DNA of 64,000 nucleotides from a virus. The stretch spans positions 180,404-244,403 of IMG/VR virus record IMGVR_UViG_3300032782_000001; one strand, given 5' to 3'. The translations under genes were made by a program, and so were the position numbers. The notes under the pieces are model-generated. The model did not search any database and was not told the origin of the DNA. It worked only from the letters and a program-made list of their open reading frames with translations. How positions within the stretch are numbered: position 1 is the stretch's first letter; the number at the start of each line of letters is the position of its first letter. Positions 16,239-54,648 of this stretch are shown here, piece by piece.

Positions 16239-16293
16239 GATGCTCCCGTCACAGCAAAACGCACTATAGACCTAGAATAGATCAAAAGAGTAT

Positions 16294-21686: not shown

Positions 21687-21687
21687 A

Positions 21688-28373: not shown

Positions 28374-29312
28374 CTAAACCGCTACGGGAGTTCCGTCCCA
28401 TGGTAGATTGACGTCACTAATGACTATCCTGTCGCCTGTACTGAGATAGCTCAATAGCTGTCCAGACTGTTTCCGCATCCCGTGCCACATCATAACATAC
28501 CCCACGCCCTTGATCCCGATAGGTTCTGAGGTAGTTGTATTATGACCGTAGATAACGGGGCCAACCTCTTCGTCCATAGAATGAGGATTTATTCCAAGTA
28601 GATTAGGAAACATGAAATTTCCTGCACTAGGATTACCAACCCCTAATGGATTGCAAGCAGACCAAGCTTCTGCTGGAGTCCCTTTTCCAAACCAGGCACC
28701 ACCGCCTGAAGCACTTGATACGTTTCCAATTGAAAAACCGTTTGTACCTGGGACTGTCCAAACAAAGGGATCTGGGTCATTTGGAGACCCCGTATTGGCC
28801 ATGATTGCATCCAATACAATTCCTCCTCCTGGAGCGCTGCCGGGGTTCCCGTCTGATATAATAGCGAGGAAAAATCCATAAGGAGCTGCGTTATCAGCTC
28901 CCATATTTACATGATAACTATTATCGCTCAAGAATCCTGTGAATGTTCCACGAATATTCTGAGAATCTGTAGCCGTAGGGATGACAGTAGCACTAGGACT
29001 GCCGCCTGTATACCCAGCAGAATAACTATATGTGAGTGTGCTAACATTGGAAATTCCTGACATCTGTAAAAGCATTTCTCGAGTAACCCCGAGATAAGAA
29101 GGCATCTGGATGCGAAACCAAGCGTTGGCGTTACCAAGGCCTCCAGCTCCAGAAGATGCCGTTGTCAAAATATCACTGGAACTCGAGAACAGACTAAGTC
29201 CGTCCCCTGAAGATTTAACAGTCCATCCAGCGGTTTTGAGAAGCTCCTTCAAATTGAAAAGAGCTCCCGCTCCCGTTACAAGACCAATATTCTTCCGGAA
29301 TATGAACGACAT
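28374..29312 (-). CDS. Member A of a four-gene tandem paralogous family (~315 aa)
   Basis: Aligns with members B-D from the internal Met (MSFIFRKNIGLVTGAGALF...); the longer ORF start at 29345 would overlap member B. Shared motifs GWTVKSSGDG, AWFRIQ, AAPYGFF/W, terminal D[IV]NLPWxGxxP. Confidence 0.7.
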   Translation of the reverse strand: MSFIFRKNIGLVTGAGALFNLKELLKTAGWTVKSSGDGLSLFSSSSDILTTASSGAGGLGNANAWFRIQMPSYLGVTREMLLQMSGISNVSTLTYSYSAGYTGGSPSATVIPTATDSQNIRGTFTGFLSDNSYHVNMGADNAAPYGFFLAIISDGNPGSAPGGGIVLDAIMANTGSPNDPDPFVWTVPGTNGFSIGNVSSASGGGAWFGKGTPAEAWSACNPLGVGNPSAGNFMFPNLLGINPHSMDEEVGPVIYGHNTTTSEPIGIKGVGYVMMWHGMRKQSGQLLSYLSTGDRIVISDVNLPWDGTPVAV

Positions 29313-29317
29313 ATTGC

Positions 29318-30265
29318 CTAGAGAAGGGGGTAACTGCCGTTCCACGGCAAGTTTATATCACCAAAACAAATCCTGTCTCGAGCAGTATTGATTCCGATAG
29401 CTGTTCCTGTAGCAAACCTGGAACTGTTGAACTTGAAAATTGAACTCATTCCTTTCCATCCGTTAGGGGCGGCTTGGCTTCCTGAAGTGGTTCGACCCCA
29501 GAACAGCGGATAAGAAAATTTCTTATTGAAATAAGTCAACAAAACTTCTGCTTGTGCAGGAATTAATGGAGTGCTAGAAGCCCCATATTGCATGGCTTGA
29601 ATTTGTTGGAATGTGGCTCCAGTTTGCCCGTAGTTGTACCAGGCTCTCTGAGTGTTACTTTGAGTAGTTAATGAAGTAAATGGAGTACCCGACGTACTGG
29701 CAATGAGAACCACAGGATCCGCATCGCTGACAGGATATGTGCCCGTCACCATCGGGTCCATGACGAGAACTCCGTCTAAAGTGGTTCCATCAATCGAATT
29801 AGGTCTAAATCCGACACTCCAAAAACCATAAGGAGCAGCTGCATCAGCAGCTGCATTCCATCTATATGTTGCATCAGTGCTATTCATCCAAGATACGAAT
29901 GTACCTGAAGTACCGATCAAAAATTGTTCATCGGTAGCGGTCGGCATTACAGTAGCACTTGGACTACCGCCAGTAAACTTTGCCTGCGCCGAGTATTTTA
30001 CTCTCCATTGCCCAATGGATCCGTTTGTCTGCATGCAGAATTCCCGAGTACCTCCCGGGTCTTGAATTCGGAACCATGAATTGGCATTTGCCATACCACC
30101 AGAGCCAGTTGTAGCACTAGTAATTTGGTCTCCTGATGAGTTAAAAGTAGTTCCATCCCCAGACGACTTCACGATCCAACCTACGAGCTTTAGCAGTGCT
30201 TTGAACCTGAATACAAGTTGCCAGCTCGTGGTCACCGCGGTGTTAGAATCATAGGAGAAAGCCAT
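29318..30265 (-). CDS. Member B of the tandem paralogous family
   Basis: MAFSYD...GWIVKSSGDG...SWFRIQ...AAPYGFW...GDINLPWNGSYP. Confidence 0.7.
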   Translation of the reverse strand: MAFSYDSNTAVTTSWQLVFRFKALLKLVGWIVKSSGDGTTFNSSGDQITSATTGSGGMANANSWFRIQDPGGTREFCMQTNGSIGQWRVKYSAQAKFTGGSPSATVMPTATDEQFLIGTSGTFVSWMNSTDATYRWNAAADAAAPYGFWSVGFRPNSIDGTTLDGVLVMDPMVTGTYPVSDADPVVLIASTSGTPFTSLTTQSNTQRAWYNYGQTGATFQQIQAMQYGASSTPLIPAQAEVLLTYFNKKFSYPLFWGRTTSGSQAAPNGWKGMSSIFKFNSSRFATGTAIGINTARDRICFGDINLPWNGSYPLL

Positions 30266-30267
30266 GA

Positions 30268-31227
30268 CTAAATCGTTGGAGTGGACCCATTCCAGGGAAG
30301 ATTAACGTCTCGATACACGATTCTATCCTTAGCACCAGGAGAAGAGATAGAAAGTGTGTCGCCTGTGGTCCTAGATGAGCCATTCCATTTCATGAAGGAA
30401 CACATCCCTTTAAAACCTCCAGGCCAACGAGCTTCTCCAGAGATAACTTGTCCAGGAGAACCGACAGGAATATCAAAGACGTCATCGTTCCCGTTGTGAG
30501 GATTGGGCCCGACGTTATTAGGAATGGTGGAAGATCCATTGTAGAAAGAAAAACACCAAGTTGGGACCCCAGAGGTAAAAGCGGAATTAAAACGCTCTCC
30601 TGTAAGTCCTTTGCGGAAATAAGCAGCAAGACCGTTTCCGCCACCCGCAAGATCGCTTCCAGCGGAAAAAGTGGAAGTGACAATCGAAATATAGAAAACA
30701 TACGGATCTGCATCAGACGGGTCAGTTTGATTCAACGGAAACATGCAAATGCACCCGTTCGGATTTCCTCCGCCGATAGCGAACTGACTAGCCCAAAATC
30801 CATAGGGAGCAGCATCATCAGCAGCTGCATTCCATCGATACGTGCTATTGCCAGGGAAAATGCTGAACCCATTAGATAGGCTAATGCTGTCAGTTGCCGT
30901 AGCAGGCACGGAAGCAGAACCACCAGAGAAATGAGCAGAATATGAGTATTTGATAACCCAAGAAGTGTCGTTACTACGCTCAAACATGAGCTGCCGATTG
31001 ACCCCATTCATGGTCGGCATCTCAATCACGAACCAAGCAGTTCCGTTCCCGAGCCCACCCGCTCCAGTGTTACCAGAAGTTATGACGTCACCGGAAGAAC
31101 TGAAAGCACTGAGACTGTCCCCGGATGATCTGACAACCCATCCGGCGGCTACCAACAGAGTCTTCAGCTTGAAGACAGCCTGAGGCCCCGTAATGGCTGC
31201 GTTGTTGACGTCATAATGGAATGCCAT
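30268..31227 (-). CDS. Member C of the tandem paralogous family
   Basis: MAFHYD...GWVVRSSGDS...AWFVIE...AAPYGFW...RDVNLPWNGSTP. Confidence 0.7.
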   Translation of the reverse strand: MAFHYDVNNAAITGPQAVFKLKTLLVAAGWVVRSSGDSLSAFSSSGDVITSGNTGAGGLGNGTAWFVIEMPTMNGVNRQLMFERSNDTSWVIKYSYSAHFSGGSASVPATATDSISLSNGFSIFPGNSTYRWNAAADDAAPYGFWASQFAIGGGNPNGCICMFPLNQTDPSDADPYVFYISIVTSTFSAGSDLAGGGNGLAAYFRKGLTGERFNSAFTSGVPTWCFSFYNGSSTIPNNVGPNPHNGNDDVFDIPVGSPGQVISGEARWPGGFKGMCSFMKWNGSSRTTGDTLSISSPGAKDRIVYRDVNLPWNGSTPTI

Positions 31228-31233
31228 AATTCC

Positions 31234-32163
31234 TCAGGTCAGGATTTTGCTGCCATTCCAAGGCAAAGCAATGTCACCAACCGTCACAGTATCTCGTGTC
31301 GTAGAAACTGAAAGAAGAGTGGGAGTAACATAAGCCTGTCCAACCATTTTCATTAGACTGGAAACTCCTTTCCAACCGACAGGGGCCGTTTTTCCAGTAT
31401 CTCTTGCGTAGAACACGGGAAACATCACTTCATTGAATGAATGAGAATGATTACCGGCTCCTCCCGGGAACAGAATCGGTGATGACCCTAGAGCCACTCT
31501 CATCCAGGGAATGTTAACAAATCCTTCCCCCGCCAATCCCTTCTTCAAATACCCAAGTGGTGAACCAGGAGTGCCGACGGAAAAAGCACTGCTGCCGACA
31601 AAAATAAACACCATCGGATCGTTATCGGCCGCAGGATAAGATCCTGCGAGCAGAGGGTCCATGACAAGAGAACAAGTTATGGACGAATTGAACTGACCGC
31701 CAAAGGTGTAGGCAAACATGTAAAAACCATATGGAGCAGCATTGTCACACGCGATCTGGATTCGATAAGTATTATCAGTAGTGAAAAGAGTAGTGGCATT
31801 TAACAGAGTTTGACTATCAGTTGCAGTCCCAGGTGTCGTGGAATTTGGTGAACCGCCGGTAAATCCTGCTGAAAATGAATACTTAGAAGTCCAAACAGGA
31901 TTGGAAGAACCTCTTTGAAATATGAGTTCACGAGAACCTGCACCGGCAGGTGATTGCATTCGAACCCAAGCACTTGTATTTGCGAATCCATTGGCGCCTG
32001 AATTCCCGGAGGTAATAATATCACCTGAACTAGAGAAAGCACTCAACCCGTCTCCGGATGACTGCGTAGTCCATCCTGCAGCTATGAGCGCTTGCTTGAA
32101 GCGGTACATAGCTTGAGACCCCGTCAGGGGTAGAGGATAGTTGATGTCAAATACGAGTGCCAT
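31234..32163 (-). CDS. Member D of the tandem paralogous family
   Basis: MALVFD...GWTTQSSGDG...AWVRMQ...AAPYGFY...GDIALPWNGS. Confidence 0.7.
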   Translation of the reverse strand: MALVFDINYPLPLTGSQAMYRFKQALIAAGWTTQSSGDGLSAFSSSGDIITSGNSGANGFANTSAWVRMQSPAGAGSRELIFQRGSSNPVWTSKYSFSAGFTGGSPNSTTPGTATDSQTLLNATTLFTTDNTYRIQIACDNAAPYGFYMFAYTFGGQFNSSITCSLVMDPLLAGSYPAADNDPMVFIFVGSSAFSVGTPGSPLGYLKKGLAGEGFVNIPWMRVALGSSPILFPGGAGNHSHSFNEVMFPVFYARDTGKTAPVGWKGVSSLMKMVGQAYVTPTLLSVSTTRDTVTVGDIALPWNGSKILT

Positions 32164-33488
32164 TAGCTGTAAAGAACCTCAAGCTGCGCGAGCTTGCACG
32201 TGCAACCATCTCCAGCGCCCGCAGGATTGGGGGTGAAGACTTGAAGTTGGACCTCGTAAGTTCTCAAAGCGTTTTTAATATTCCCAGCAGCACCGCCTAC
32301 GGTGAGAGTCCCGGAAATAAGACGAGAAGGTGTCGTGGATGCCACAGACAACGCCGTCCCGGTAACATCTTCTGCGTCGTCTACGTTAAATAATTTCACC
32401 TGGGCAGTAACGCCAGGGGTTCCTTCCAACACCGCTCGGAACTTGATTGTCCTCGTGAATCCTGAAGATCCAGCTCCAGCGGCAATTACGGAAGGATCGA
32501 AAACAATGCAACCAATACCTTTATAAGTATTGGAGCCTGTGCCGGAATTAGACTGAGACCCTGTGACACCTGGGAAAGTGAAAATTGCAGGGACAGTAGC
32601 CAGGGAAGAAGGAGTCCATTGTGCTCCGTCCCAAAGAACCACATTGCCGGTTGATGGAGCCGCAGAATTAAAATTCCTACCTTGAATTTTTACAACGGTG
32701 TTAGACCCTATAGTCCCGGTTACATCTCCAGAAAGAGTCAAATTCAAAGTAGTGGGGGCCCATTTGGAACCATCCCATTCCAAAACTTGACTGGAGGTAG
32801 GAGCTGTCGAATCGACCGCCCTACCTTGAAGCTTGATAACAGTTGCACTAGCAATAGTCCCGGAAAGGTCTCCTCCTACTGCAGGATTGGTTGGAGTCCA
32901 AGCCGAACCATTCCACTCCAGGATATCTCCTGAAGACGGAGAACTTGCGCTTATTGGGTGGGATTGTAATCCCACTACCACTGCATCGTTGAGAGGCCCG
33001 GAAAGATCCCCACCAGCGCCTGCCGAAGTATTTAAGACGACATCCCAAATGTCTTCAATAACGTAAAGCCACGCATCCAGTTCTGTCATGGCTCCACGGG
33101 AGCCCGTTTCAGATCCTTCAGTATAAGCAGGATGACGGCGGGGAAGCGTAGCAGTAGCTGCAATGACCGGATCGCCGGGGTTCCTGGCGTAGAACCATAG
33201 TTCTGAAATTTTGTTGAGACCTACTCCACCATCAGCAATAAACCGGACTTTATACGTACCCTTGAAAGTAGGAGTGATGGTAACAGCAGGAAGCGTCAAA
33301 GGTGGAACTAAATTATCCCCAGATTCTATTAAACTGTGATCGACAGGACGACTAATTAACTGCCATTCATAAATACCGAAAGCAGACGTCAGAGAAAAGG
33401 TCACGGGGGTCCCCGTAACCACATCGTAGTTCGGGACTCCGGTGGTGACCGACAGACCCTGAGTTATGACGATGACCGGGCCTGGCAT
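32163..33488 (-). CDS. Tail fibre protein with three GGDLSG...W.P shaft repeats and a C-terminal domain shared with the collagen-like fibre
   Basis: Repeats GGDLSGPLNDAVVVGLQ...GDILEWNGSAWTP (x3). The C-terminal ~120 aa (…YEVQLQVFTP…CTCKLAQLEVLYS) are paralogous to the C-terminus of 43394-46147 (…YEVQLRCYP…[13 protein letters not shown]). Confidence 0.7.
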   Translation of the reverse strand: MPGPVIVITQGLSVTTGVPNYDVVTGTPVTFSLTSAFGIYEWQLISRPVDHSLIESGDNLVPPLTLPAVTITPTFKGTYKVRFIADGGVGLNKISELWFYARNPGDPVIAATATLPRRHPAYTEGSETGSRGAMTELDAWLYVIEDIWDVVLNTSAGAGGDLSGPLNDAVVVGLQSHPISASSPSSGDILEWNGSAWTPTNPAVGGDLSGTIASATVIKLQGRAVDSTAPTSSQVLEWDGSKWAPTTLNLTLSGDVTGTIGSNTVVKIQGRNFNSAAPSTGNVVLWDGAQWTPSSLATVPAIFTFPGVTGSQSNSGTGSNTYKGIGCIVFDPSVIAAGAGSSGFTRTIKFRAVLEGTPGVTAQVKLFNVDDAEDVTGTALSVASTTPSRLISGTLTVGGAAGNIKNALRTYEVQLQVFTPNPAGAGDGCTCKLAQLEVLYS

Positions 33489-33521: not shown

Positions 33522-36500
33522 TCAGTTGAGAATAATAAGTTGTAGAGAATTGCGTTTGAGATCCCGCACCAATCGATAAGTGTGGAAGTTTCCATCTTCC
33601 CAGTCAAAAGGACGACGGAACAAAGTTTTGCCTGAATTTAGATCTTGAACTTTGACGAAACGAAATGAACCAAGCTTTTCAAAGCCGATACCAGCTGTAA
33701 AGCCGAAAGGTCCGGCAATTCCGGAAAAACCAACATAGATTCCTGAGTCCAAATTAGTGGATGGAGAGAATACGGAATTGATTCGAATGGAAAGAGTCAT
33801 TTCAAACTTGACGGAAATAGAATCAGGGAGCCCCGAGCGGCTCTCATATGCCGTTCTCGTAGTTCCAATAGTTCCGTAACGCATGAAGTCTATTGGACCT
33901 GCACTCATCATGGTGACGGACACAGAAGAGGGATCGTCTGACAAAATGAACCAGGGCGTGTATTGAGGAACGTCTAGTCCCAACAAGAAAATGGCTGAAC
34001 CACTAAGAATCATTACTTTGGACGAGGGACCAGACGTCGGGCTAATAAGCCTAATGCGTCCATCGATCTCAGATGAGGCAAGAGATGAAGGGAGTCCCGG
34101 CGCAGAGTTGATTCGTGAAACAACAGCCCCCGAAGTCGTATCACCCGCTTGGAAAGTCACGAGAACAGGATCCGCTTGATCTACCTGAATCGTGATGGTT
34201 TCTCCTCCTACGATATTGAACGGCGGGGTCAGATTCCCAACAAGCTGAGCATTCTCAGGAAGAGCCGCACCAGTGAAAGTAAGCGTCTGATCTTGTTGCG
34301 CTTTAAATCCATCAATATGCCACGTTTCATCATCCGAGAACGGTGAAACGTGACCAGGTTCCCCCGTCGGAGTCCGGAAGAATTTCATTCCTTCATACAA
34401 AACACGTGATGGCGGATCTAGTCTAATGAACACGGTTCCGCCGTGAACACCAGGCTGGACTCTATGAAGTTCATACTTTGTCCTAATCTCATTAAGTAAA
34501 TCCACCGCCGTAATCAAATCCACAGCATCGGGGGATGTGACTACATTCACAGTGTCATCTGTTACGTGCACGTCATCTGCCGTCCGATGAATGTTAAATT
34601 TGAGTTTAAGCTGATTGGTGGTAAGAATAAGACTGGCAAGATCAGAAGGTGGGGGCAAGAACACATGATCTTGAATGTCTTCCGTCACGTGGGTTCGAGG
34701 TCGAACCAAATGCATGTTGAATTGATTCAACAGATCAGCAGCAAGGGTCAAAGCAGTAACGGTCGGTCCATCGATAGAGCTGACTGACAGCACGGGGGAG
34801 AAGCCAAAATGATAAAGGTTTCCAACTCTATGAAGGTTATACTCTGACTTGAGCTCATTGAGAAGTGTAATCGCGGTATTCAAGTCAAATGCATCTGGAG
34901 ATACAACAGCATATCTAATGTCAAGATCTTCATGCAGTTCCACTTGGGACTCGATGAGTGTCCTGTGCCGATTGAATTTCAGCTTCATATCATTGATCAA
35001 TCCAATAATGGATGGCAAATCCAAAACTGGTTGACCTGCGACAATTCGAGTGAAGGAACTTGGAGAAGAATCCGGAGTCGCATAAGGAGCAGATGCAGTA
35101 AAGAATCCGGCACCTACAGCAATAACGACCCTGAACGATCCAGCATTTGGACCCGTGAGAAATTCGATAGAGTTCCCGATTCCCAAAGGAATGGTCGGAT
35201 TTTCGACAGTAACCAGATCAGCTTGGACCGATCCATACCCCAGACCCGGAATCCGTAGAATCGTTTCAGCATCGAGAATGTCAGAGAAGAAATGGAATGA
35301 TGTGGCCAATACGTGGGCACTCATTTGAACTCGAACTTCGTCAGCGAGAATCGCCAGACTAGTAATATCGGAAGCGTCAGCTGCCGTCACGATATTTGTG
35401 ACATCAGGCGTGATGTGGAGCGGGCCGCCGTTCCTATGACCTGTGTACTGAACAATCAAGTCATCTGCCAGTACGACAGCTGAATCAATATCAGTCGCAT
35501 CGGCGGATGTAACTATGTCTTGGTTGTCATCGAAATCATGAATACCAGGTTGAGTCCTGTGGGCGTTAAATTTAGCTTTCAGTTCATTGAGTAGTGCGAT
35601 GGCCGACGACAGATCTAAAGCTGCTGGAAGAATCGAAGCGTTTACGAGATCATTGGATACATGCAAACCTGGCTGCACGCGATGTGAATTATACTTAGAT
35701 TGAACATCATTTGCAATAGAAATAACATCAGAAATAGCATCGGAAACTGTTGTAGCTGATGGTTCAGTAACAACGTCATCAATATCATCTTCAAGGTCAG
35801 AAATGAATCCTTTAGTATTAACAAGATCTACGGACGGAATATTTTCTACGGGAGTAACGACACGAGTTAGCCCTCCCCTAGACTCAAGATTTTGAGTCTT
35901 CGGGACTGGCGGAGTGCCTTCGCCGAGAATAGTAAAAGCAGCAACATCCGCATCGCTCATGAAATCGTCCAGAGGAGTGCCACCAGAATAAATCCGGAAG
36001 CCAAAATGTTGATGAGTCTTGGCAGTAAAAAGATGATCGGGAGACGCTACAGCATTTGCCCGATTAGTAACTTGACCGGGAGAAATAAGTCGATCGCTCA
36101 AAGTGAGTTTGCCGATGGAATACTTAATGAAATCCCATCGAGTCCGGACGATCTCTTGCGGATTGAAACTACCGAAGGCTACGGCTTGATGGCCGCTTGT
36201 GATTCCTTTCAAAAAACTTGTGGAGGATGATGGAAGTCGCAAAGAGTCGTAATTTGTGCTGATTACAGGAACTTGTCCCCCATCCACATAAACGGAAACG
36301 GCAGACACGGGGTCACGAACAATTCGATAAGTGTGGAGCGCTGTCCAATCAACTTGATATAAATAGTATGAGTCGAGAATCGTAGGATCTCCACCCATGA
36401 AAATTCCCACGAATCTACGACTAGAAGCGCTGGGATCAGAAATCTTACTATCACGGAAAACTGTCACAGTATTCCAATCCACCACAGACATGGCAGAACG

Positions 36501-39500
36501 CATGTCACTTCCGTTTACTGGAGCACTTCCGGATCCAAACGACAAAGAAGGACCTGCCAATCCAGTATTTAATCCAGAATAAGTCGGTGACGGTTGTCCC
36601 GATAACGGACTAAGAAGAGATCCGTCTGCGAGGACAAAAATGGAATCGGCGTTCTTGGACGTGTAGACATCATAAGAGTGAGTTTGCCCGTCTCCCCAGT
36701 TGAAAGCGTACTGAGCTTTCACGTCCAAAGAACCGGTAGACGTATTGAAAGACACAAGATTTAGGTATTTATTGTTGGTTATCGGATCAATAGCAGTCTG
36801 CAGTTCTAAAGACTTACCGGAAGGGCCTTCATCAACGGATACTAAAGCACCACAGAAATGATATGTATTGTACGGGGGCGCCGCCGGGATACTATCACCA
36901 GGCACGAATGAAAGAACTGCGAATCTGCAGTCCATCTTCCAATCCACAGATGAATTGAATGCTTGATTTGTAACTACAGGATCAGCAAGATTAAATACAA
37001 CATAATCAGAAACGTCTGAATCGGTCAGACGCATAGTCCGACCAAGCATTTCAGAAGACTGGGTACCGGCTCTAGTCCAAACTGGGCTATCGAGGTCAGG
37101 AAGATTCTCGCCGAACCAACTTACTCTTGGTTCCGGATTCGAGTCCTTGCCTCGATAAACTCCAGGACTGAATCCAAGTTTGGACAGCGAACTCCCGGAA
37201 ATGATCTGAATACTGGATTGAATACCAACATCTGAGCTAGTGAGGGTGACTCGGCCTCCTGCTGCAGAAGCTAAAGTGAAACCAGCTGCAGTATTGATAG
37301 TCGAAGCCACATTCACGGCAGTGGAATCAGATGGTGAGAAATTCACAGTAAAGGGAGGAGCTCCATCCAGACTAATGACGATGGAGTCACCTGAAACCAT
37401 CGGAAACGGTTCGGTAGACGATCCTGTGATAGTAGCCGGAGATGGCGAAAATTGAAGGAAACAGAATTGAACTGAAAAATTTTCGTCGTCGAGGAAAACC
37501 CCCGCAGCTCGATTATCCAGGCTATGGGTCCAAAAATCAATCGAAGCAGCGAATTCGAAACTACAGGCAGTGTTTACAGAAAGAATAGGTTCAAGTCGTA
37601 GACATCCTCTATACGCACCAGAGCTCAAGCCTAGAGCTTGAACACTAGCAGAAGGAGCTGACGCCGTGGAATCAATCGTCAAAATTCCTGAAGCTACTCG
37701 TTCCACGCCTCCTTGGCCAACAGTGATCCAAGGAGCTTGAGGATCCAATTCCGGAAGAGTATCAGCTTCGTAATCTACTCTCTTATTATCCCCGATTAAG
37801 TTTGCATCCACAGGGCTCATGTTGGAACGAACGAAAGCCCAATTGCTAGTTGATGTTGAATTTCTACCAATTGACCCGAAGAAAATTTGTTGTAGTGGGT
37901 CGAATTGTCCATCCAAATCGCTAATGGATGGGAGTTCCGTAACCGACGCTGTAGTAATAGGTGAAAGCCCACCGCTCAAGAAGAGTGAAATATCTCCGTC
38001 AGAATCACGGAAAATACGGTAAGTGGTAAGAACAGTCCAATCGACGCTAGCAGCATTCCAACTTTCTTGGAATTCCGCGAATCCTCGATTAGTAAGAATC
38101 CCGGCTTGGCGAACTTGGTTGACAACGTTAGTTACGTCATTGACGAAGTGAATTCCAGGTTGTGTTTCATGTGCATTGAGTTTAGTCCTAATTTCATTCA
38201 CAAGAGTAAGAGACGTGGGCAGGTCATCCGCATCCGGAGACACAATGGGGTCAATCGTGTCTGGGATAATATGAACACCACTGGCTCCACCTTTTGCCAT
38301 GTGGAGGTTCATTTTAGATTTCAGGTCATTCAATAAGATGACCAAAGATACTAGATCTGTCGCATCAACGATAACGACTGTATCATCAGGATCGTTGGGG
38401 ATATGAGATCCTAGATTCGTAAGGTGTGAATTAAATTTAGCCTTCGCATCATTGACCATCACAATAGCTGACGATAGATTAATAGCGTCAGTCAGAATGA
38501 ATCCAATAACAGCCACTTTCTGGCCATCAGAAACTCCGAAAGAAACCCCTGTGAAAACTCCATCATTGACAGATTCTTCTACGAACATACGGAATGCTGC
38601 CGACAAAATAGCCGGTGCCCGCATGTCAATAGTATGAGTAAAGAACGGAGGTTGACTCGACGGTCCAGTCTGAATATTGGAATCGACGATGGTCAGTTGA
38701 TTCCCTCCGGGAGCGAGAATAAACGTACCGTCACCTTCAAGAGTCCAAGGGTTATGGGCATTTTGAGGGAGTGTGATCGGGTCGTATCGAATGGTAGTTT
38801 CGAAGAAAGTTTGGAATAGGACAGGATATGCAAGACGATTGGTAGGAACGTTCAAAAGAAGGGTGCTGGGATCATTCAGAACAGCGGAATACCTCCTTTC
38901 AAGGCCTTTATACTTCCAGCCAACTTTTTGCGGCTGATAGGGGGACGTGAAATCAGGACTGGTGACTGGGTCAATAAGAAAAGACCGAGATCGATACCTG
39001 TGTTCTGGGAATCCAGCATACCCGCGATTCCCAGCCTGATTCAGATTGAATTCTGGAGAATTTAGTCTGAGTAACTTGGCCGGCGGATTATTCAAAAATG
39101 CATAGTTGATCGAGACTATATCTGTGGGGCTCGGTTTATTTGTAAGAACAACTGCCCCGAGAAGTCCGAATACTGCATCAACCGCAGCAGGAGACCCATT
39201 CACAATTACGTCTACGTCCGCAGAATCATCTGCAACCATTCCAGGCCGAGGATCTTTGAGAATCCAAGAAAAAGGTCCAGTAAGGGGGCCCGGATATAGA
39301 CCCGTAATTGGTTTTACTTCTGAAATCGTGACCCGATTAACGGAATCCCCGACTTGATGAGATTTAAGGTTTTGCCTATGAGATTCAAATTTCCTACGTA
39401 AATCATTGACAAGAATAACCGCACTAGCCAATGACGTTGCCGCAGGCGATAGAATCACATCATCCGTATCCGCAACTTTGTGAACAGGCGGAACACCTGA

Positions 39501-40010
39501 TACGTCCACTACGTGTAAATTAAATTGGGTACGAATATCATTTAACATGATGATAGCCGATGCCAGATCAACAGCAATCGGGCTAGTTACTATGTTCACG
39601 GTATCATCGGTCCCGTGGACTCCGATGATAGTAGTCCCCTGAGTAATTTTCTGAATCCTGTGAGAGTTATACCGAGCTTTGAGCTCGTTGGTTAAACCCA
39701 CGACAAGATTAGTAGTGATCCCAACATCAGAAATATCAAAACTAGCGTTTTCAAGTTGAAGAAGTTGATTATTGATGGCCTTCTTAATGTAGAAGACCCC
39801 GTCGTTGCGGCCTCCGGCACTTCCCGTGATTGCAATTTGCTGACCCACATTGAGGGAATTGAAACTGCCAGTCGGAATTGAAACCTGCGTTTCCGACATA
39901 ATTCGGAGGTTACTTCCGGCCAATAAATCAGCTGGCCTCTTGACAATAGGGCCTCGATTGGTAAAGAGAGTCCTATCGAGAACAGAGCTGAGACCAGTAA
40001 AGGTGATCAT
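33522..40010 (-). CDS. Giant repeat protein (2162 aa) built from at least 15 copies of a 41-45 aa helix-loop repeat with two conserved His
   Basis: Recurrent units such as DAVDLITAVDLLNEIRTKYELHRVQPGVHGG, ALDLSSAIALLNELKAKFNAHRTQPGIHDFDD and DATDLVSLVILLNDLKSKMNLHMAKGGASGVHII. The ATGA start overlaps the stop of the upstream 832-aa gene. Confidence 0.8.
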   Translation of the reverse strand: MITFTGLSSVLDRTLFTNRGPIVKRPADLLAGSNLRIMSETQVSIPTGSFNSLNVGQQIAITGSAGGRNDGVFYIKKAINNQLLQLENASFDISDVGITTNLVVGLTNELKARYNSHRIQKITQGTTIIGVHGTDDTVNIVTSPIAVDLASAIIMLNDIRTQFNLHVVDVSGVPPVHKVADTDDVILSPAATSLASAVILVNDLRRKFESHRQNLKSHQVGDSVNRVTISEVKPITGLYPGPLTGPFSWILKDPRPGMVADDSADVDVIVNGSPAAVDAVFGLLGAVVLTNKPSPTDIVSINYAFLNNPPAKLLRLNSPEFNLNQAGNRGYAGFPEHRYRSRSFLIDPVTSPDFTSPYQPQKVGWKYKGLERRYSAVLNDPSTLLLNVPTNRLAYPVLFQTFFETTIRYDPITLPQNAHNPWTLEGDGTFILAPGGNQLTIVDSNIQTGPSSQPPFFTHTIDMRAPAILSAAFRMFVEESVNDGVFTGVSFGVSDGQKVAVIGFILTDAINLSSAIVMVNDAKAKFNSHLTNLGSHIPNDPDDTVVIVDATDLVSLVILLNDLKSKMNLHMAKGGASGVHIIPDTIDPIVSPDADDLPTSLTLVNEIRTKLNAHETQPGIHFVNDVTNVVNQVRQAGILTNRGFAEFQESWNAASVDWTVLTTYRIFRDSDGDISLFLSGGLSPITTASVTELPSISDLDGQFDPLQQIFFGSIGRNSTSTSNWAFVRSNMSPVDANLIGDNKRVDYEADTLPELDPQAPWITVGQGGVERVASGILTIDSTASAPSASVQALGLSSGAYRGCLRLEPILSVNTACSFEFAASIDFWTHSLDNRAAGVFLDDENFSVQFCFLQFSPSPATITGSSTEPFPMVSGDSIVISLDGAPPFTVNFSPSDSTAVNVASTINTAAGFTLASAAGGRVTLTSSDVGIQSSIQIISGSSLSKLGFSPGVYRGKDSNPEPRVSWFGENLPDLDSPVWTRAGTQSSEMLGRTMRLTDSDVSDYVVFNLADPVVTNQAFNSSVDWKMDCRFAVLSFVPGDSIPAAPPYNTYHFCGALVSVDEGPSGKSLELQTAIDPITNNKYLNLVSFNTSTGSLDVKAQYAFNWGDGQTHSYDVYTSKNADSIFVLADGSLLSPLSGQPSPTYSGLNTGLAGPSLSFGSGSAPVNGSDMRSAMSVVDWNTVTVFRDSKISDPSASSRRFVGIFMGGDPTILDSYYLYQVDWTALHTYRIVRDPVSAVSVYVDGGQVPVISTNYDSLRLPSSSTSFLKGITSGHQAVAFGSFNPQEIVRTRWDFIKYSIGKLTLSDRLISPGQVTNRANAVASPDHLFTAKTHQHFGFRIYSGGTPLDDFMSDADVAAFTILGEGTPPVPKTQNLESRGGLTRVVTPVENIPSVDLVNTKGFISDLEDDIDDVVTEPSATTVSDAISDVISIANDVQSKYNSHRVQPGLHVSNDLVNASILPAALDLSSAIALLNELKAKFNAHRTQPGIHDFDDNQDIVTSADATDIDSAVVLADDLIVQYTGHRNGGPLHITPDVTNIVTAADASDITSLAILADEVRVQMSAHVLATSFHFFSDILDAETILRIPGLGYGSVQADLVTVENPTIPLGIGNSIEFLTGPNAGSFRVVIAVGAGFFTASAPYATPDSSPSSFTRIVAGQPVLDLPSIIGLINDMKLKFNRHRTLIESQVELHEDLDIRYAVVSPDAFDLNTAITLLNELKSEYNLHRVGNLYHFGFSPVLSVSSIDGPTVTALTLAADLLNQFNMHLVRPRTHVTEDIQDHVFLPPPSDLASLILTTNQLKLKFNIHRTADDVHVTDDTVNVVTSPDAVDLITAVDLLNEIRTKYELHRVQPGVHGGTVFIRLDPPSRVLYEGMKFFRTPTGEPGHVSPFSDDETWHIDGFKAQQDQTLTFTGAALPENAQLVGNLTPPFNIVGGETITIQVDQADPVLVTFQAGDTTSGAVVSRINSAPGLPSSLASSEIDGRIRLISPTSGPSSKVMILSGSAIFLLGLDVPQYTPWFILSDDPSSVSVTMMSAGPIDFMRYGTIGTTRTAYESRSGLPDSISVKFEMTLSIRINSVFSPSTNLDSGIYVGFSGIAGPFGFTAGIGFEKLGSFRFVKVQDLNSGKTLFRRPFDWEDGNFHTYRLVRDLKRNSLQLIILN

Positions 40011-42505
40011 GGAATTACCGCATTCCCTGCCGTATCAGTGAGACCAACGGCTTGAAGGGTATATGAGATGGGTTCCATGCTGGTTACTCGAATTGACACA
40101 ACTTGCGGATCTCTCCAACTCATTTCTTTGACCACAATAGATCCACCTGTAAGGACTAAGTTAGATGAATCGAGTGGGACTTGATACATTGGCTTAGAAA
40201 AGTATACTTCTACAGTGTCGGCTTCCAGTCGAACACCGGCATCAGTGTCAACAATTCCAGGCCTAGGGAGTGCGGATGCCAAAGAGGGGGTGGACGCAAC
40301 ACCTTCAATGGGGAATTGGATCGATACTTGATGGTGATGATCTGCCCCTAAATGCCTACCATCAAATGTACCGGGGGTCAAATCACCATCGGAATTATCA
40401 TGATACACATCTTTGAAATTAGCAGAAAAAGTATACGTCATGCTATCGATCATTGAATCAGTCTCAATGATGATTCCATCAAAGAGTCGAGCTGAATAAA
40501 TACGCCATCCCGGTGCAGAATGAACTCCCAATTTAATATTGTGAGCCAAGAATTTCTTACGAATTTCGGCCACTAGCGCCACCAAAGTATCCATATCAGA
40601 AGCAATTGGTGCCTGGACGATATCGAAATCTGATTGGAAATGATAAAAATTACTCGACATATGATTGTTGAGATTGATAACAAATGAATTGACAGATATG
40701 ATTGCATCTTCTAAAGTAGGAGAAACGGCGTAAACCGGATTATTCATGAAATCAATATTCTGGTGACCAGCTCCTGTATTAGGGAATCCTGAAACATGTT
40801 GTGAGAATGCAAATGCAAGTTGATTGAATGCCCACATAACACCAGGGAGAGTAGCTGAAACTCTAACTGAATTAGACTCAACAATATTCCCACTAGAATC
40901 CAGAAGTTTGACTGAACTGGAAGAGTCAAGAAGCGGTTCTCTATCGAAGAAGAGAGCTGCTGATTCATCCACTACTTCCTGATCGAAAATCTGAGTAACC
41001 TGCGTATTGACTGCACGGGCAATAATGCTGCCTGTGTAATCACCAGGATTGGTCATACTACCGGCGTCATCACTTGTAAGCGTGGCTGCAATCGTAACGG
41101 GTATTTCATTGGAATTCATGACTAGATGTAAATCCGCGTAATAAGTATAGGGGGTTTCCGCAGGGAACACTTGCGGAAACAAATCTGTGGACGCACTTAA
41201 TTGAGTCCTGTCTAAAATTTCTGGTCCAATCTGGAATGGGTACCTAATAGAAAAAGGGACAGAATAAATAGGAGCCAAATGACCATTATAAGCCGGCTTC
41301 AAATTCTGGTTCATCACAGCCACGGCGAATCCGAGTTGACCATGAGGAACGGACAAGAATCCGAATGTGTTGTATAAGTCATTGTAAACATGAACACCGG
41401 ACGCCACAAAGTGAGATAGAACTTTCAGTTGTCCTTCATTCAAGATGTCGATACCGCTGTCTGTATCAACAGCGTCAGGTGATGTGACCGTATCAGTAGG
41501 ATCATTGTTGACATGTATTCCGGCTGCCACCAGATGAGCATTGAATTTTGCCTTGAAGTCATTCATGAGAGTGACAAATGTGGGCTCATCAATTGCGTCG
41601 GGGGCTGTAATTAGATCAACCGTATCTGTATGGACGTGCGGACCTTGCTGAGTCACTGACCAATTCGTTTGAGTTCGAGCATCTCCAACTGGTCCGTTGA
41701 AATAAACACGAACAGTGCCAGTCATGATGAAATCGTTACTAACATCTGCTACGTATGCATCAATAATCTGAAGTTGAGTAATTTTTGTGTAGTCATACGG
41801 AAGAGGAGACCTTAAAACTAGGTCTAAATCAGTGCTACCAGTAGCCGAATTGAAAGACTGGTCTACGACACCTGAGAAGTCAATCGCATAGGAATTAGCC
41901 GCCGCCATTCCTGGAGGAAGTGCAAATCTCAAAGAGGATTCAGGTAGAACGAGTTCCGAAGACCAAACTTGAAGCGTCATAGCGACGCCTCCGCCACCAT
42001 TCGAATCTCTGATTGTTGCTGTTGCAGCAGGAGAAGTGGGTCCTACGGATCGATCAAAAACAATATCCACACAACCACGACGGGACAGATAAGCTCCGAG
42101 AACATGAGGAGGGTCAATAACATTAGCAGTAAAATTGCGAGCTGCCCCAGAAACTCCTTCGCCTGCAGCATCTTCCACACCAAACACTTGAACGGAATAA
42201 GCCGTACCTGAGGTAAGGCTGAGAGAAAGGTTCAAAACAACAGAGCGTCGAGTTTCATCATAAAACTCGACTGAAAGAATGGCTGGAACTATGGCTGTCC
42301 CTGGAGGAGCCAAAGACGACATGAAATACATACCAACAGGGAGTGCTGAATCTGTAACAGGAACGTCGAATACAATTCGGACTTTCCGGGCACCAATCTG
42401 ATGGGCCGTAAACCCGAACGTGCCGAGACCGAATGAATCAACAATCCCGAGAACGATGTTCCCGAGTTGACTGTTCGGAGTGCCGAGCCTTCCAGTAAAG
42501 GGCAT
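40007..42505 (-). CDS. Large structural protein (832 aa) carrying at least 5 copies of the same His-containing repeat
   Basis: PDAIDEPTFVTLMNDFKAKFNAHLVAAGIHVNNDPTDTVTSPDAVDTDSGIDILNEGQLKVLSHFVASGVHVYND; ...LVALVAEIRKKFLAHNIKLGVHS. Confidence 0.8.
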   Translation of the reverse strand: MPFTGRLGTPNSQLGNIVLGIVDSFGLGTFGFTAHQIGARKVRIVFDVPVTDSALPVGMYFMSSLAPPGTAIVPAILSVEFYDETRRSVVLNLSLSLTSGTAYSVQVFGVEDAAGEGVSGAARNFTANVIDPPHVLGAYLSRRGCVDIVFDRSVGPTSPAATATIRDSNGGGGVAMTLQVWSSELVLPESSLRFALPPGMAAANSYAIDFSGVVDQSFNSATGSTDLDLVLRSPLPYDYTKITQLQIIDAYVADVSNDFIMTGTVRVYFNGPVGDARTQTNWSVTQQGPHVHTDTVDLITAPDAIDEPTFVTLMNDFKAKFNAHLVAAGIHVNNDPTDTVTSPDAVDTDSGIDILNEGQLKVLSHFVASGVHVYNDLYNTFGFLSVPHGQLGFAVAVMNQNLKPAYNGHLAPIYSVPFSIRYPFQIGPEILDRTQLSASTDLFPQVFPAETPYTYYADLHLVMNSNEIPVTIAATLTSDDAGSMTNPGDYTGSIIARAVNTQVTQIFDQEVVDESAALFFDREPLLDSSSSVKLLDSSGNIVESNSVRVSATLPGVMWAFNQLAFAFSQHVSGFPNTGAGHQNIDFMNNPVYAVSPTLEDAIISVNSFVINLNNHMSSNFYHFQSDFDIVQAPIASDMDTLVALVAEIRKKFLAHNIKLGVHSAPGWRIYSARLFDGIIIETDSMIDSMTYTFSANFKDVYHDNSDGDLTPGTFDGRHLGADHHHQVSIQFPIEGVASTPSLASALPRPGIVDTDAGVRLEADTVEVYFSKPMYQVPLDSSNLVLTGGSIVVKEMSWRDPQVVSIRVTSMEPISYTLQAVGLTDTAGNAVIP

Positions 42506-42508
42506 GAA

Positions 42509-43366
42509 TCAACTAGTCCTGGACCGACGTGCTAGTTTCTTCCTTGCAAAAACAACTAAAGCACGTGCCTTTCGGCATACTATGCATTCGTATCGAACCT
42601 TTAAGCCAATTTTCTTATGGCATTCTCCGATCGGGATTGGACCGTGGACCTTGCAGTTGAAATGAGTCCGTTCTAATGATAACCTCTTGAGAGTCGCACC
42701 ACCGTTCTTGATCGCGGCATCTGACGGACGACGACCTTTCATGGCTGCAGAGATTTTAGCTCTCGCTTCCGTGGATAGCTTTCTGCCTGACGACGCCTGC
42801 CGGATTTTTTCTTTATGGTCATTGGAGAGCTTCTTCCCCCGTTGCACTTCGGAAATTTTCCGCTTAGACTCGTCGGAATGGTGTTTTCCTTTGAAAGAAG
42901 AACCGAGAGCCACAATCTCCGGACGAGAATGAACTTCCTTGGAAATTTTGGACATCTTCTGACGATATTCAGGCGTCCATGATGCCTTACTAACTGCAGA
43001 CGCCTTCTCTCGGAAGCCCGGACGGTTCCAGTAATCAGTTTTAACTGAATGTGGGGTATGAAGTCCTCCCTGCATAAGATTGAAACCCTTCTCGGAATTC
43101 CTTGTGTCGTAGAATTCAATCCAACTCTCTTCAGCTAGATTCGCAACTCCGAGCTCAGAGCAAACTTCAAGCACCTCGTGCAAAAAAGCATCCTTCCCAT
43201 ATTTCCGAATTGCACTCCAAAAATAACGACATCCTTTGCCGAGTTTGGACTTCGCATTATGAAGATGTTGATTCCATCGCTTCATCATTGTGAGCTTCGT
43301 CAGCCCAATATAGCGACGTCCAGATTCAGTATGCGTATGACAGTAAATAGTCCAGCGAGTCCCCAT
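42509..43366 (-). CDS. Second free-standing GIY-YIG homing endonuclease, paralogue of 26333-27253
   Basis: WTIYCHTHTESGRRYIGLT...RWNQH...YDTRNSEKGFNL; about 60% identity to the first HEG over the catalytic domain; NUMOD-like C-terminal repeats. Confidence 0.85.
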   Translation of the reverse strand: MGTRWTIYCHTHTESGRRYIGLTKLTMMKRWNQHLHNAKSKLGKGCRYFWSAIRKYGKDAFLHEVLEVCSELGVANLAEESWIEFYDTRNSEKGFNLMQGGLHTPHSVKTDYWNRPGFREKASAVSKASWTPEYRQKMSKISKEVHSRPEIVALGSSFKGKHHSDESKRKISEVQRGKKLSNDHKEKIRQASSGRKLSTEARAKISAAMKGRRPSDAAIKNGGATLKRLSLERTHFNCKVHGPIPIGECHKKIGLKVRYECIVCRKARALVVFARKKLARRSRTS

Positions 43367-43393: not shown

Positions 43394-46147
43394 TCATGCC
43401 CAGGTAAATACGATTTGTGCCAGTTTGCAGGTAGCCTGATCCGAAGGCCCAGGACCAGTAGGACCAGAAGGTCCCGTCGGATAGCATCTAAGCTGAACTT
43501 CGTAGAGTTGCATCTGGTTATCCAAGTCGGCCGGCACGGTCAGTATCTGTCGAACGAGTGTGGGAGTGGTATTGATCAAGTTCTTCGTAGTTCCCGAAAT
43601 ACCAGTACCGACGCCAAGGTTATAGAGACGAATCTCTGCATACATGCTTGGCGTGGACTCAATAACAGCTTGCCATTCGATTTGTCGACCACTGACTTGA
43701 GTTTTGGTTGGATCTACTGCGATGGCTCCAATACCAACGAAGCCAGTTTGACCAGTTTGTTGAGCTCCAACCACCCCCGGGAAAACAACAGAAATTGGGA
43801 ATGGTCCAGATCCGCCCCCACCACCTCCACCAGGACCAGTTGCACCTTGAGGACCCGTCGCTCCGGTAGCTCCGGCGGGTCCGGTAGCTCCGGCGGGTCC
43901 GGTAGCTCCCGTTACGCCTGGAGATCCTTGCGAACCAATAGCTCCTTGCGGTCCAGTGGCTCCTGTAACTCCTGGAAGGCCGATCGGACCTGTGGATCCC
44001 TGAGGTCCGGTAGGTCCCGCAGGTCCAATTGCACCTTGAGGACCAGTCGCCCCCGTCAACCCCGGAGATCCTTGAGGAGCTCCGGCGGGTCCGGTAGCTC
44101 CAGTGACCCCGTCCATGCCGGCAGGACCCGTAGCCCCCTGAGGACCCGTAGCCCCCGGAGCTCCAGTTACTCCGTCCGCACCTTGTGGTCCAGTGGCTCC
44201 AGTGACGCCGGGTGACCCTTGAGGAGCTCCCGCAGGTCCAGTTACTCCAGTGACCCCAGGTGAGCCCTGAACGCCCTGCGACCCAGTAGGGCCAACCGCA
44301 CCCGTCGCCCCAGTTGCACCAGCATTTCCAATGGGTCCGGTTGCACCTTGTGGACCGGTTGCACCTTGTGGACCGGTTGGACCAGTTACTCCAGTTAAAC
44401 CTGGAGACCCTTGCGGACCTGTTGCTCCTTGTGGCCCCGTAGATCCTTGTGGCCCCGTAGATCCTTGTGGTCCAGTCGCCCCAGTTGCTCCTTGGGGACC
44501 AGTTGCTCCTTGGGGACCAAGGGGCCCTGTAACGCCATCAATTCCCGTTGCACCTTGAAGGCCCGTTGCACCTTGTGGACCGGTTACTCCCTGCGCTCCG
44601 GTTGTACCGACAGGTCCAGTTGGGCCAGTTGCTCCAGTGGCCCCTTGTGGACCGGTTGCACCTTGTGGACCGGTTGTACCAATAGGTCCAGTCGGGCCAG
44701 TTGCTCCAGTGACTCCGTCTACACCGGTGGCGCCTTGTGGACCAGTTACACCATCAGCTCCTGTTGAGCCCTGCGGCCCTGTGGGGCCAGTAGCCCCCGT
44801 TGCACCTGGGGGCCCACCAAAGGGACCCGTAGGCCCTTGAGGACCAGTGGAACCGGTAACACCTTGTGGGCCTGCAGGACCTGTCGGACCAGTAGTTCCC
44901 GTAAAACCTGGAGAACCTTGCGGCCCGATTGAACCAGTAGGTCCTTGGGGACCTGTGGGGCCAGTTGCACCTTGCGGGCCAGTTGGTCCAATTGGACCAC
45001 CAGAAGGTCCAGTCGGGCCAGTAGCACCAACGGCACCAACCAAACCAATCGCAGAAATTTCGCCTGTTAAGAAATTGACAGTTCCGGAGTTAGCAAGCCA
45101 TTGAACCTTTACGGTATAAGTTCCAGCTGACAAGGCCGTGGACGTAAACGTCCCGGCCACAATGCTCATGGAAGTGGATTCTCCATCCTCTTGGAGAGAT
45201 GGACCGTTTTGGGAGTCAATAACGAGTCGAAAAACGGCAGAACTTGAAAGAACATCAGGCTGCCACTGGAGAGAGAACGACGCCGAAATAGGCGCCGTAC
45301 TTCCAATAGTGACGCTCGTAGACATACCCGGGATGTCTACGAATCCGACACTCGTAGTCTGAGCAAATGTCGGAGTGCTAATATATCCGAAGGGAATTGG
45401 AGCGGGGGCTGGTGCCGGACCCTGAATACCCGTAGCGCCTTGTAAACCTGTAGCTCCTTGTGGTCCAGTGACTCCCGGAGAACCTTGAGGCCCAGTCGGC
45501 CCCGTGGCACCAGTCGCTCCAACTGGCCCAGCAGCACCTGTGACTCCAGCGGGTCCAGTGACTCCCGGAGAACCTTGAGGCCCAGTCGTTCCAGGACTAC
45601 CTTGGGGACCTGTGGTTCCTGCAATACCAGGAGAACCTTGAGTTCCTTGGGATCCCGTAGCTCCTCTCGGTCCCGTTGGTCCAGTCGCCCCCGTCGATCC
45701 GACAGGTCCGGTGGCTCCAGTTGGTCCCTGAGGACCTCCAAAAGGCCCCGTGGGACCCTGGGCACCAGTAGGACCCACAGGGCCCGTGACACCAGTAGGA
45801 CCCGCAGGTCCCGCAGGTCCTATGGGACCCGTAGAACCAGCAGGACCGGTAATTCCGGTGATGTCTGTTTTAAGTTGATCAATGGCCCCTGCAGTCAAAA
45901 TATGAGTGACTGTCGCGCCGAAAGCGTGGGTCGCTGCGGAAGTTCCCTCTTGACCACGGAGAACTGTAAATAAATTCCCGGCGACTCCAGTGACGATCAA
46001 AATCTCATCGTCAATCCGAATACGGAATTGCGGGAGAGGAGGAAACAACGCAGCGCTGGCGACAGTAACATTCGTCGCCACGGGGCTAATGCCGCCGAGC
46101 TGGTTGATAGTCGTCTGTGCGCCGTTGGAGAATTTCTCGGTGGTCAC
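43394..46147 (-). CDS. Collagen-like tail fibre (917 aa): N-terminal anchor, two long G-X-Y triple-helix blocks separated by an Ig-like insert, C-terminal domain shared with the 441-aa fibre
   Basis: About 550 aa of [10 protein letters not shown]-type triplets; a G7 run before the C-terminal domain; C-terminal homology to 32163-33488. Confidence 0.85.
43800..45880. repeat. Highly repetitive coding DNA of the collagen blocks, including perfect 18-bp tandem duplications and ~30-bp dispersed repeats
   Basis: tccggtagctccggcggg x2.5 at 43862-43909; gcaccttgtggaccggtt x2 at 44343-44378 and again near 44650-44685; ccttgtggccccgtagat x2 at 44427-44462; caggtccagttgggccagttgctccagtg at 44611 and 44684. 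Confidence 0.85.
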
Positions 46148-54632: not shown

Positions 54633-54648
54633 TTTAACAGTTCAACAA

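What the first reader, a model, noticed from the sequence alone, without database searches (positions are those of the whole stretch)
33522..42505. At least 20 copies of a previously unrecognised 41-45-aa helix-loop repeat with two invariant histidines in two adjacent giant proteins
The 2162-aa protein has at least 15 copies and the 832-aa protein at least 5. Each repeat is an amphipathic helix (…DA[VI]DLxSAIxLLN[DE]L[KR]xKFNxH…) followed by a loop (…[RT]QPG[IV]HxxDDxxNVVTSPDA…). It is not a collagen, fibritin-heptad or beta-helix repeat, and I cannot match it to any named fibre repeat. In a trimer, two regularly spaced His per unit would give a ladder of His triads, reminiscent of the metal-coordinating HxH ladders in T4 gp37. 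This could be a metal-stabilised alpha-helical fibre shaft.
Basis: partly seen in the sequence, partly recalled or inferred. Interest (0 to 1): 0.8.

Follow-up and report, generated by a model that had tools for sequence, protein, structure and literature searches.

The report
Three-repeat histidine helix bundle in phage fibres
Two neighbouring giant tail proteins of a very large uncultured phage carry a real, previously undescribed repeat.

Summary
The 2162-aa ORF (33522-40010, -) has 15 copies of a ~41-aa helix+loop unit. The 832-aa ORF (40007-42505, -) has six helices plus one loop-only copy. The motif H-x6-H-x3-D is 98-100% conserved over ~2,750 units from 252 proteins.

The repeats do not form a continuous shaft. 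They occur in blocks of three, separated by beta-rich domains, and copy numbers in relatives are mostly multiples of three (3-27).

AlphaFold2 models one block with high confidence (pLDDT 96, pTM 0.90) as three helices joined by long return loops, with the N- and C-terminal flanks paired. I read this as a single-chain, pseudo-threefold parallel three-helix bundle.

An exhaustive profile search finds 1,654 cluster representatives, from 148 to 3,370 aa long, almost all from uncultured phages.

The genes sit in the tail-fibre slot, after a baseplate-J-like gene.

The first His falls on a core 'd' heptad position at the helix C-terminus, so a His triad per block is plausible. I could not measure the geometry, and metal binding is untested.

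Verdict: a new structural domain family. The trimer-ladder interpretation is only partly supported.

The parts
33522..40010 (-). ORF A, 2162 aa: giant multi-domain virion protein with 15 repeat units, i.e. 5 three-repeat blocks
   Evidence: 126 full-length relatives on contigs of up to 436 kb.
40007..42505 (-). ORF B, 832 aa: Ig-like (Big_5) N-terminus, two three-repeat blocks and an Ig-like C-terminus. It overlaps the start of A by ATGA.
39324..39704 (-). A block I (aa 103-229), three units. His 117/132, 166/177 and 211/218 are invariant in 21 relatives.
38115..38489 (-). A block II (aa 508-632), three units. This is the block that was modelled, with flanks, as aa 498-641.
   Evidence: pLDDT 96.3, pTM 0.90; helices at model residues 15-33, 56-74 and 100-118; flanking strands 5-10 and 136-141
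35373..35735 (-). A block III (aa 1426-1546), three units
34770..35378 (-). A block IV (aa 1545-1747), three units, with a beta domain inserted after its first helix and loop
35022..35270 (-). 85-aa six-strand beta insertion inside block IV (aa 1581-1663), resembling the E1 FCCH domain
   Evidence: Strands at model residues 193-260. Relatives hit Pfam E1_FCCH. The weak top Foldseek hits are Uba1.
34413..34757 (-). A block V (aa 1752-1866), three units
41270..41683 (-). B block I (aa 275-412): a loop-only pre-unit (H290), two full units (H324/H331, H365/H372) and a third helix with His1 only (H409)
40517..40861 (-). B block II (aa 549-663), three units (H570/H581, H615/H622, H655/H662)
42146..42388 (-). 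Bacterial Ig-like domain (Pfam Big_5) in B, aa 40-120
   Evidence: E 1.5e-7, above the gathering score
47056..50508 (-). Context: baseplate-J / wedge-like protein, 1150 aa. It defines the baseplate-to-fibre gene order in which B and A sit.
   Evidence: The same order is seen in relatives L001 and L002.

Best explanation
The repeat is the building brick of a previously undescribed protein domain. Three consecutive ~41-aa units make one ~125-aa domain; each unit is a 19-residue amphipathic helix followed by a conserved return loop. I read the domain as a single-chain, pseudo-threefold bundle of three parallel helices, with the three return loops running back along the outside, so the chain enters and leaves at the same end.

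ORF A has five such bundles and ORF B has two. They are inserted into or between beta-rich domains (Ig-like, concanavalin/LamG-like, flagellin-IN-like, FCCH-like). A and B lie directly after the baseplate-J-like gene of a ~436-kb uncultured phage, which is the tail-fibre slot.

I therefore read A and B as baseplate-attached, beads-on-a-string fibre or adhesin proteins. In them the bundles act as rigid knob or spacer modules, and relatives change the number of bundles in steps of three repeats.

Shown here: the repeat itself, its grouping in threes, the confident compact model, the invariance of H-x6-H-x3-D, the lack of any known family, the wide distribution and the gene order.

Inferred: the helices are parallel and pseudo-threefold. 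His1 occupies a core 'd' heptad position in the last helical turn, so the three His1 of a bundle converge on the axis. His2 and the Asp anchor the return loop, with the Asp probably N-capping the short helical turn that follows it.

Speculative (about 0.4): the His cluster binds a metal ion that clamps the open end of each bundle.
For: Repeat and significance.

Rule of three:
- In 119 relatives of A the two N-terminal blocks are always x3, and the C-terminal arrays are x3, x6, x9, x12 or x18.
- Totals are divisible by 3 in 89 of 119 relatives (binomial p 3e-20, not corrected for relatedness).
- Among 131 diverse representatives, 73-78 are divisible by 3 (p 1e-7 to 7e-10), with modes at 3, 6 and 9.
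- A large family of ~175-aa proteins has exactly one block.

Fold:
- AF2 of aa 498-641 with 58 relatives gives pLDDT 96.3 and pTM 0.90. It has three 19-residue helices and two flanking strands that can only pair with each other, so the termini are adjacent.
- AF2 of aa 1398-1885 gives nine helices plus a beta insertion, with pLDDT 87.8 and pTM 0.61.

Conservation: all six His are invariant in 58 relatives. All 30 repeat His of A are invariant or at least 90% conserved in 21 relatives of 32-67% identity. Per unit, His1 is 99%, His2 100%, Asp 98% and Asn 80% conserved.

No known family.

Distribution: 1,654 cluster representatives at E<=1e-3 and 871 at E<=1e-10.

Gene order (baseplate-J-like, ~265 aa, B-like, A-like).
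Against: - AF2 was run on a monomer only, so a homotrimer could not be tested. Monomer predictions of truly trimeric fibres can fold back on themselves.
- The rule of three is imperfect. About 25-40% of proteins deviate, mostly by one undetected degenerate unit, and the relatives are not independent.
- The role in the virion rests on gene order only. Some small single-block relatives lie next to the major capsid gene instead, so the domain is not specific to tails.
- The small proteins and B block I lack the third His2 and return loop, so a six-His site cannot be universal.
Confidence: 0.68

Rival explanations
1. A and B are homotrimers, and each repeat contributes one helix to an inter-chain three-stranded coiled-coil segment. 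Two His triads per repeat then stack into a metal-binding ladder along an alpha-helical shaft.
For: Tail fibres are usually homotrimers (established knowledge; also stated in PMC12143355). The helices have a heptad pattern and His1 is at a core position. Only a monomer was modelled.
Against: A homotrimer gives no reason for copy numbers to run in threes, or for 175-aa proteins to hold exactly three units. The 20-25-residue loops are as conserved and as confidently modelled as the helices, and the flanks of a block pair with each other. The blocks are separated by Ig-like, LamG-like and FCCH-like domains typical of monomeric bead chains.
Confidence: 0.12
2. The fold is as in the best explanation, but the invariant His/His/Asp form a purely hydrogen-bonded network, or a pH-sensitive switch, that locks each return loop onto the bundle. 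No metal is involved.
For: The Asp is followed by a short helical turn in the model, which suggests N-capping. His2 is lost exactly where the return loop is lost, which ties it to the loop rather than to a central site. No Cys or carboxylate ligand set typical of structural Zn sites is conserved.
Against: Conservation of 99-100% over ~2,750 units is higher than for the hydrophobic core positions (51-83%). That is unusual for hydrogen-bond donors, which normally tolerate Asn or Gln.
Confidence: 0.35
3. The H/H/D motif is catalytic, for example a repeated hydrolase or depolymerase site acting on the host envelope.
For: His/His/Asp sets occur in many metallo-hydrolases (general knowledge). Phage fibres often carry enzymes.
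Confidence: 0.03

Closest known systems
T4 gp37 long-tail-fibre tip with HxH iron sites
   Same: A phage fibre protein with recurring invariant His placed around a threefold axis. In gp37, seven iron ions are coordinated by paired His (HxH) (PMC11705849).
   Different: gp37 is an intertwined beta-structured homotrimer with H-x-H motifs (beta structure from my own knowledge). Here the unit is alpha-helical, the spacing is H-x6-H, and the threefold is apparently within one chain. There is no sequence or fold match.
[quoted passage not shown]
   Same: A repeating helix-plus-turn element in a phage fibre with threefold packing of helices (PMC7602432). A PHROG annotated 'head fiber protein' gives the only weak library hit.
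Vps30/Beclin-1 BARA domain
   Different: It is a eukaryotic autophagy protein with 4-7% identity. Its return elements are beta sheets, and it has no His motif. This is an analogue, not a relative.
Single-chain or designed parallel helix bundles (gp41-5; de novo His3 three-stranded coiled coils)
   Different: These are engineered proteins. The natural domain uses extended loops, not helices, as its return segments.

Membership tests
T4 gp37-type HxH metal-binding fibre repeat | His-x-His motif recurring along the chain | tested here: not met
   The His1-His2 spacer is 6 in 1447 of 2237 units and ranges from 3 to 25; it is never 1.
T4 gp37-type HxH metal-binding fibre repeat | Sequence or fold similarity to known tail-fibre repeats | tested here: not met
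T4 gp37-type HxH metal-binding fibre repeat | Metal ion coordinated by six His from three chains | not testable with these tools
phi29 gp8.5-type head fibre | Homology to gp8.5 (beta-tulip base plus helix-turn-helix supercoil) | tested here: not met
PHROG 6994 'head fiber protein' | Full-length match to the 67-position profile | tested here: inconclusive
   E = 5e-4 for B and 0.06 for A, over profile positions 31-55 only. Small relatives score 2e-6 to 9e-4. The Otagovirus VCM member shares the helix half but has no His. The annotation has no experimental basis that I could find.
Continuous trimeric coiled-coil fibre (fibritin-like) | Long uninterrupted heptad register | tested here: not met
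   The helices are 19-24 residues long, each followed by a 20-25-residue non-helical loop.
Any curated family (Pfam-A, NCBIfam, PHROGs) | Score above the curated threshold on the repeat | tested here: not met

The most novel reading that the evidence does not exclude
Each three-repeat block is a new kind of natural metal site in a phage virion protein. A His3 (or His5-6) cluster caps a single-chain pseudo-trimeric helix bundle. This would be an alpha-helical, intrachain counterpart of the beta-structured, interchain HxH iron sites of T4 gp37. With 7 blocks in A plus B, up to 9 blocks (27 repeats) per protein in relatives, and more than 1,600 sequence clusters in uncultured phages, it would be a second, widespread way for phage particles to carry bound metal. 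It may have arisen by triplication of a homotrimeric single-helix fibre protein such as the His-less 73-aa Otagovirus 'head fiber protein'.
Probability: 0.3. Interest if true: 0.7.

Novelty: new variant of a known kind. Interest (0 to 1): 0.5.

Why it matters
Tail-fibre and adhesin proteins of huge uncultured phages are almost entirely unannotated. This work defines a domain of ~125 aa (three repeats, motif H-x6-H-x3-D) that recurs in at least 1,650 sequence clusters and has no Pfam, NCBIfam or PDB counterpart. The definition would allow annotation of many 'hypothetical' virion proteins.

The domain is a natural example of a single chain imitating a trimeric helical bundle. It also gives a small, confidently modelled target for structure determination and for testing metal binding: a 125-aa block, or the ~175-aa one-block proteins.

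If the His cluster binds iron or zinc, that would bear on how much trace metal phage particles sequester.

Tried and rejected
- Family searches of A, B, a three-repeat fragment and ten diverse relatives (Pfam, NCBIfam, PHROGs) found nothing, apart from Big_5 in B and the weak PHROG 6994 hit.
- PDB sequence searches with profiles of the single unit, the block and the whole A family gave only chance-level hits: a DEAD-box helicase at E 0.26-0.88 and triosephosphate isomerase at E 0.2.
- tblastn against 50,697 GenBank phage records found no match for A or for a six-unit relative. The block and a small relative hit only one uncultured record, MW202476.1, plus the helix-only Otagovirus proteins.
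- A word-indexed protein search with the 40-position unit profile found nothing, so that search was wasted.
- IMG/VR scans failed. The block alignment was too variable to seed a scan, and B has no close relative there.
- An exact look-up of A's own contig returned nothing.
- I looked for model coordinates in the sandbox to measure His-His distances, but none are provided.
- I considered testing whether His losses are correlated within blocks, but dropped it. Only ~1% of units lack a His, which is too few, and most of those are degenerate or truncated units.
Full report
**1. The observation**

- A regular-expression seed followed by four rounds of hmmbuild and hmmsearch converged on 15 solid units in A. 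They lie at aa 103-229 (x3), 508-632 (x3), 1426-1580 (x4) and 1664-1866 (x5). It found 6 units in B, at aa 275-379 and 549-663.
- The consensus unit is DAxDL-x-[ST]-A-[IV]-x-L-x-N-[ED]-[LI]-[KR]-x-x-[FY]-N-x-H-x(6)-H-x(3)-D-x-x-N-x-V-x-x-P.
- As a control that avoids circularity, an HMM built from A's units alone scores B at 92 bits (E 1e-27). The best of 1000 shuffles of B reaches 6.4 bits.
- Nothing else in the six-frame translation of the window carries the repeat.
- An alignment of B with eight relatives shows that the HMM missed one helix in B (aa ~388-410, with N399 and H409 invariant). It also shows that B's first 'unit' is only the loop half. B therefore has 3+3 helices.

**2. The histidines**

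- In the window, His1 is present in 20 of 21 units and His2 in 21 of 21.
- All six His of block II are invariant in 58 relatives.
- All 30 repeat His of A are invariant or at least 90% conserved in 21 relatives of 32-67% identity.
- Over ~2,750 units from 252 proteins, His1 is 99%, His2 100% and the following Asp 98% conserved. The hydrophobic core positions are only 51-83% conserved. HMM-based unit detection favours units that keep the His, so these figures are somewhat inflated.
- The His1-His2 spacer is 6 residues in about two thirds of units, but it tolerates insertions of up to 25 residues.

**3. The units come in threes**

- In 119 relatives of A, the two N-terminal clusters are always x3. 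The C-terminal arrays are x3, x6, x9, x12 or x18, and totals range from 6 to 27.
- At a relaxed detection threshold, 89 of 119 totals are divisible by three. Clusters of exactly three are by far the commonest, at 322 of ~480.
- Among 131 diverse cluster representatives from an exhaustive search, 73-78 totals are divisible by three, with modes at 3, 6 and 9. The binomial p values are 3e-20 and 1e-7 to 7e-10. They are not corrected for relatedness. Most exceptions are one unit short, which fits an undetected degenerate copy.
- In the window protein, the apparent x4 + x5 is nine units split by an 85-aa insertion.
- A large family of ~175-aa proteins consists of a ~55-aa N-terminal part plus exactly one block of three.

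**4. Predicted structure**

AlphaFold2 on A aa 498-641, with 58 relatives as the alignment, gave pLDDT 96.3 and pTM 0.90.

- The model has three 19-residue helices (model residues 15-33, 56-74, 100-118), joined by 22-25-residue, mostly extended linkers.
- Two beta strands lie at the extreme N- and C-terminal flanks (residues 5-10 and 136-141). They are the only strands of that length in the model, so they must pair with each other. The chain therefore enters and leaves the domain at the same end.
- Three equivalent helices, three return linkers and adjacent termini fit a parallel, pseudo-threefold bundle.
This topology is therefore an inference.

A second model, of aa 1398-1885, gave pLDDT 87.8 and pTM 0.61. 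It shows nine helices, i.e. three blocks, with a six-strand beta domain inserted after the fourth helix.

Because each block starts and ends at the same end, blocks cannot simply stack head to tail into a thin rod. Block II looks like an excursion from a beta-sandwich domain.

**5. Heptad register (inference from sequence)**

- The conserved hydrophobic positions L5, A8, A/L12, L15 and F/Y19 follow an a/d pattern. This puts His1 (position 22) at a 'd' core position in the last helical turn.
- Three parallel helices would then bring three His1 together on the axis, at the C-terminal end of the bundle.
- His2 follows a Pro-Gly-type turn. The Asp precedes a short helical turn in the model, which suggests N-capping.
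- In the small one-block proteins and in B block I, the third unit ends just after His1 and has neither a return loop nor His2. His2 is thus tied to the loop, and a six-His site cannot be universal.

**6. Is it known?**

- No Pfam or NCBIfam family matches the repeat.
- PDB sequence searches with profiles of the unit, the block and the whole A family give only chance-level hits.
- The single library signal is PHROG 6994, 'head fiber protein', at E 5e-4 for B, over ~25 residues of the helix. Its Otagovirus members, for example the 73-aa Pseudomonas phage VCM protein encoded next to the terminase gene, share the helix but have no His. I found no experimental basis for that name.
[quoted passage not shown] A recent tail-fibre structure atlas lists no comparable class (PMC12143355).

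**7. Distribution and context**

- An exhaustive profile search over 1.84 billion cluster representatives found 1,654 proteins at E<=1e-3 and 871 at E<=1e-10. Among the 150 best-scoring hits that were listed, lengths run from 148 to 3,370 aa. None of the ten looked up has an informative name.
- Among 50,697 GenBank phage records, only one uncultured genome (MW202476.1) carries a block. There it is a 178-aa protein three genes after the major head protein.
- The window comes from a 436-kb contig with phage replication and baseplate genes.
- In the window and in two relatives on 303- and 383-kb contigs, the gene order is baseplate-J-like (~1150 aa), a ~265-aa gene, optional extra genes, B-like (~800 aa), then A-like (~2100 aa). 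This is where tail fibres are normally encoded.
- Other carriers lie at the end of tail-like modules or directly after a probable capsid gene. The domain is therefore a general virion-protein module, not a tail-specific one.
- Relatives of A give occasional Pfam hits to Laminin_G_3, Flagellin_IN and E1_FCCH in the non-repeat parts. B has a Big_5 Ig-like domain.

**8. Interpretation**

- The best-supported reading is that A and B are baseplate-attached multi-domain fibre or adhesin proteins. In them, single-chain three-helix bundles serve as compact rigid modules between or within beta-rich domains. Arrays of these modules have expanded and contracted in steps of one bundle.
It does not explain the rule of three, the one-block proteins or the paired flanks.
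- Whether the invariant His cluster binds metal remains open. The extreme conservation favours a specific chemical role. The absence of the third His2 in minimal versions, and the likely capping role of the Asp, argue for at most a His3-type site, or for a hydrogen-bonded lock.

**9. Verdict**

The repeat is a real, statistically solid and previously undescribed domain family. I would provisionally describe it as a three-repeat His-His-Asp helix bundle. It is a new variant within the known kind 'modular phage fibre domains', and of moderate interest. The interest would rise if metal binding is confirmed.

Noticed in passing
window 42509-43366 (-) and 26333-27253 (-): Two homing-endonuclease-like ORFs lie inside the structural gene block. 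One (GIY-YIG + NUMOD3) sits between the collagen-like gene and B. The other hits PHROG homing-endonuclease families. The first is absent from the same slot in relatives L001 and L002.
   Followed up: partly
window 43394-46147 (-) and 32163-33488 (-): A 917-aa collagen-like protein (nine Pfam Collagen stretches; local GC 0.60 against ~0.46 elsewhere) shares a ~130-aa C-terminal domain with the 441-aa ORF just downstream of A (36% identity, E 3e-15). Both end in ..CKLAQ[LI]... The two genes bracket B and A.
   Followed up: partly
window 28374-32163 (-): Four tandem paralogous ORFs of 309-323 aa. The pair I compared is 40% identical (E 1e-59). The three whose translations I read (29318-32163) end in LPWNGS. 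None has a family match (for one of them). They may be a diversified set of distal fibre or receptor-binding proteins.
   Followed up: partly
window 35022-35270 (-), A aa 1581-1663: A small six-strand beta domain is inserted inside one three-repeat block. Two relatives hit Pfam E1_FCCH in my scan, one of which also carries this domain in the precomputed table. The weak top Foldseek hits of the nine-unit model are ubiquitin E1 enzymes.
   Followed up: partly
L003 5881-6102 (Pseudomonas phage VCM, NC_029065.1): A 73-aa protein annotated 'head fiber protein', encoded next to the terminase gene, shares the helix half of the repeat (76-80% identity over 25 residues in this genus) but has no histidines. 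It may be a single-helix relative that has to oligomerise.
   Followed up: partly
L004 5815-6351 (MW202476.1); L008 7001-7543: One-block proteins of ~178-180 aa are encoded just after the major head protein in L004 and after a probable capsid gene in L008, in ~50-77-kb phage contigs. This hints at a head-associated role for the minimal form of the domain.
   Followed up: partly
window 11688-25487 and 52485-62997 (-): Several other very large ORFs (1516, 1552, 882, 715, 1752 and 771 aa) have essentially no Pfam or PHROG match, apart from a weak 'tail protein' hit for the 1552-aa ORF. None carries the repeat.
   Followed up: no
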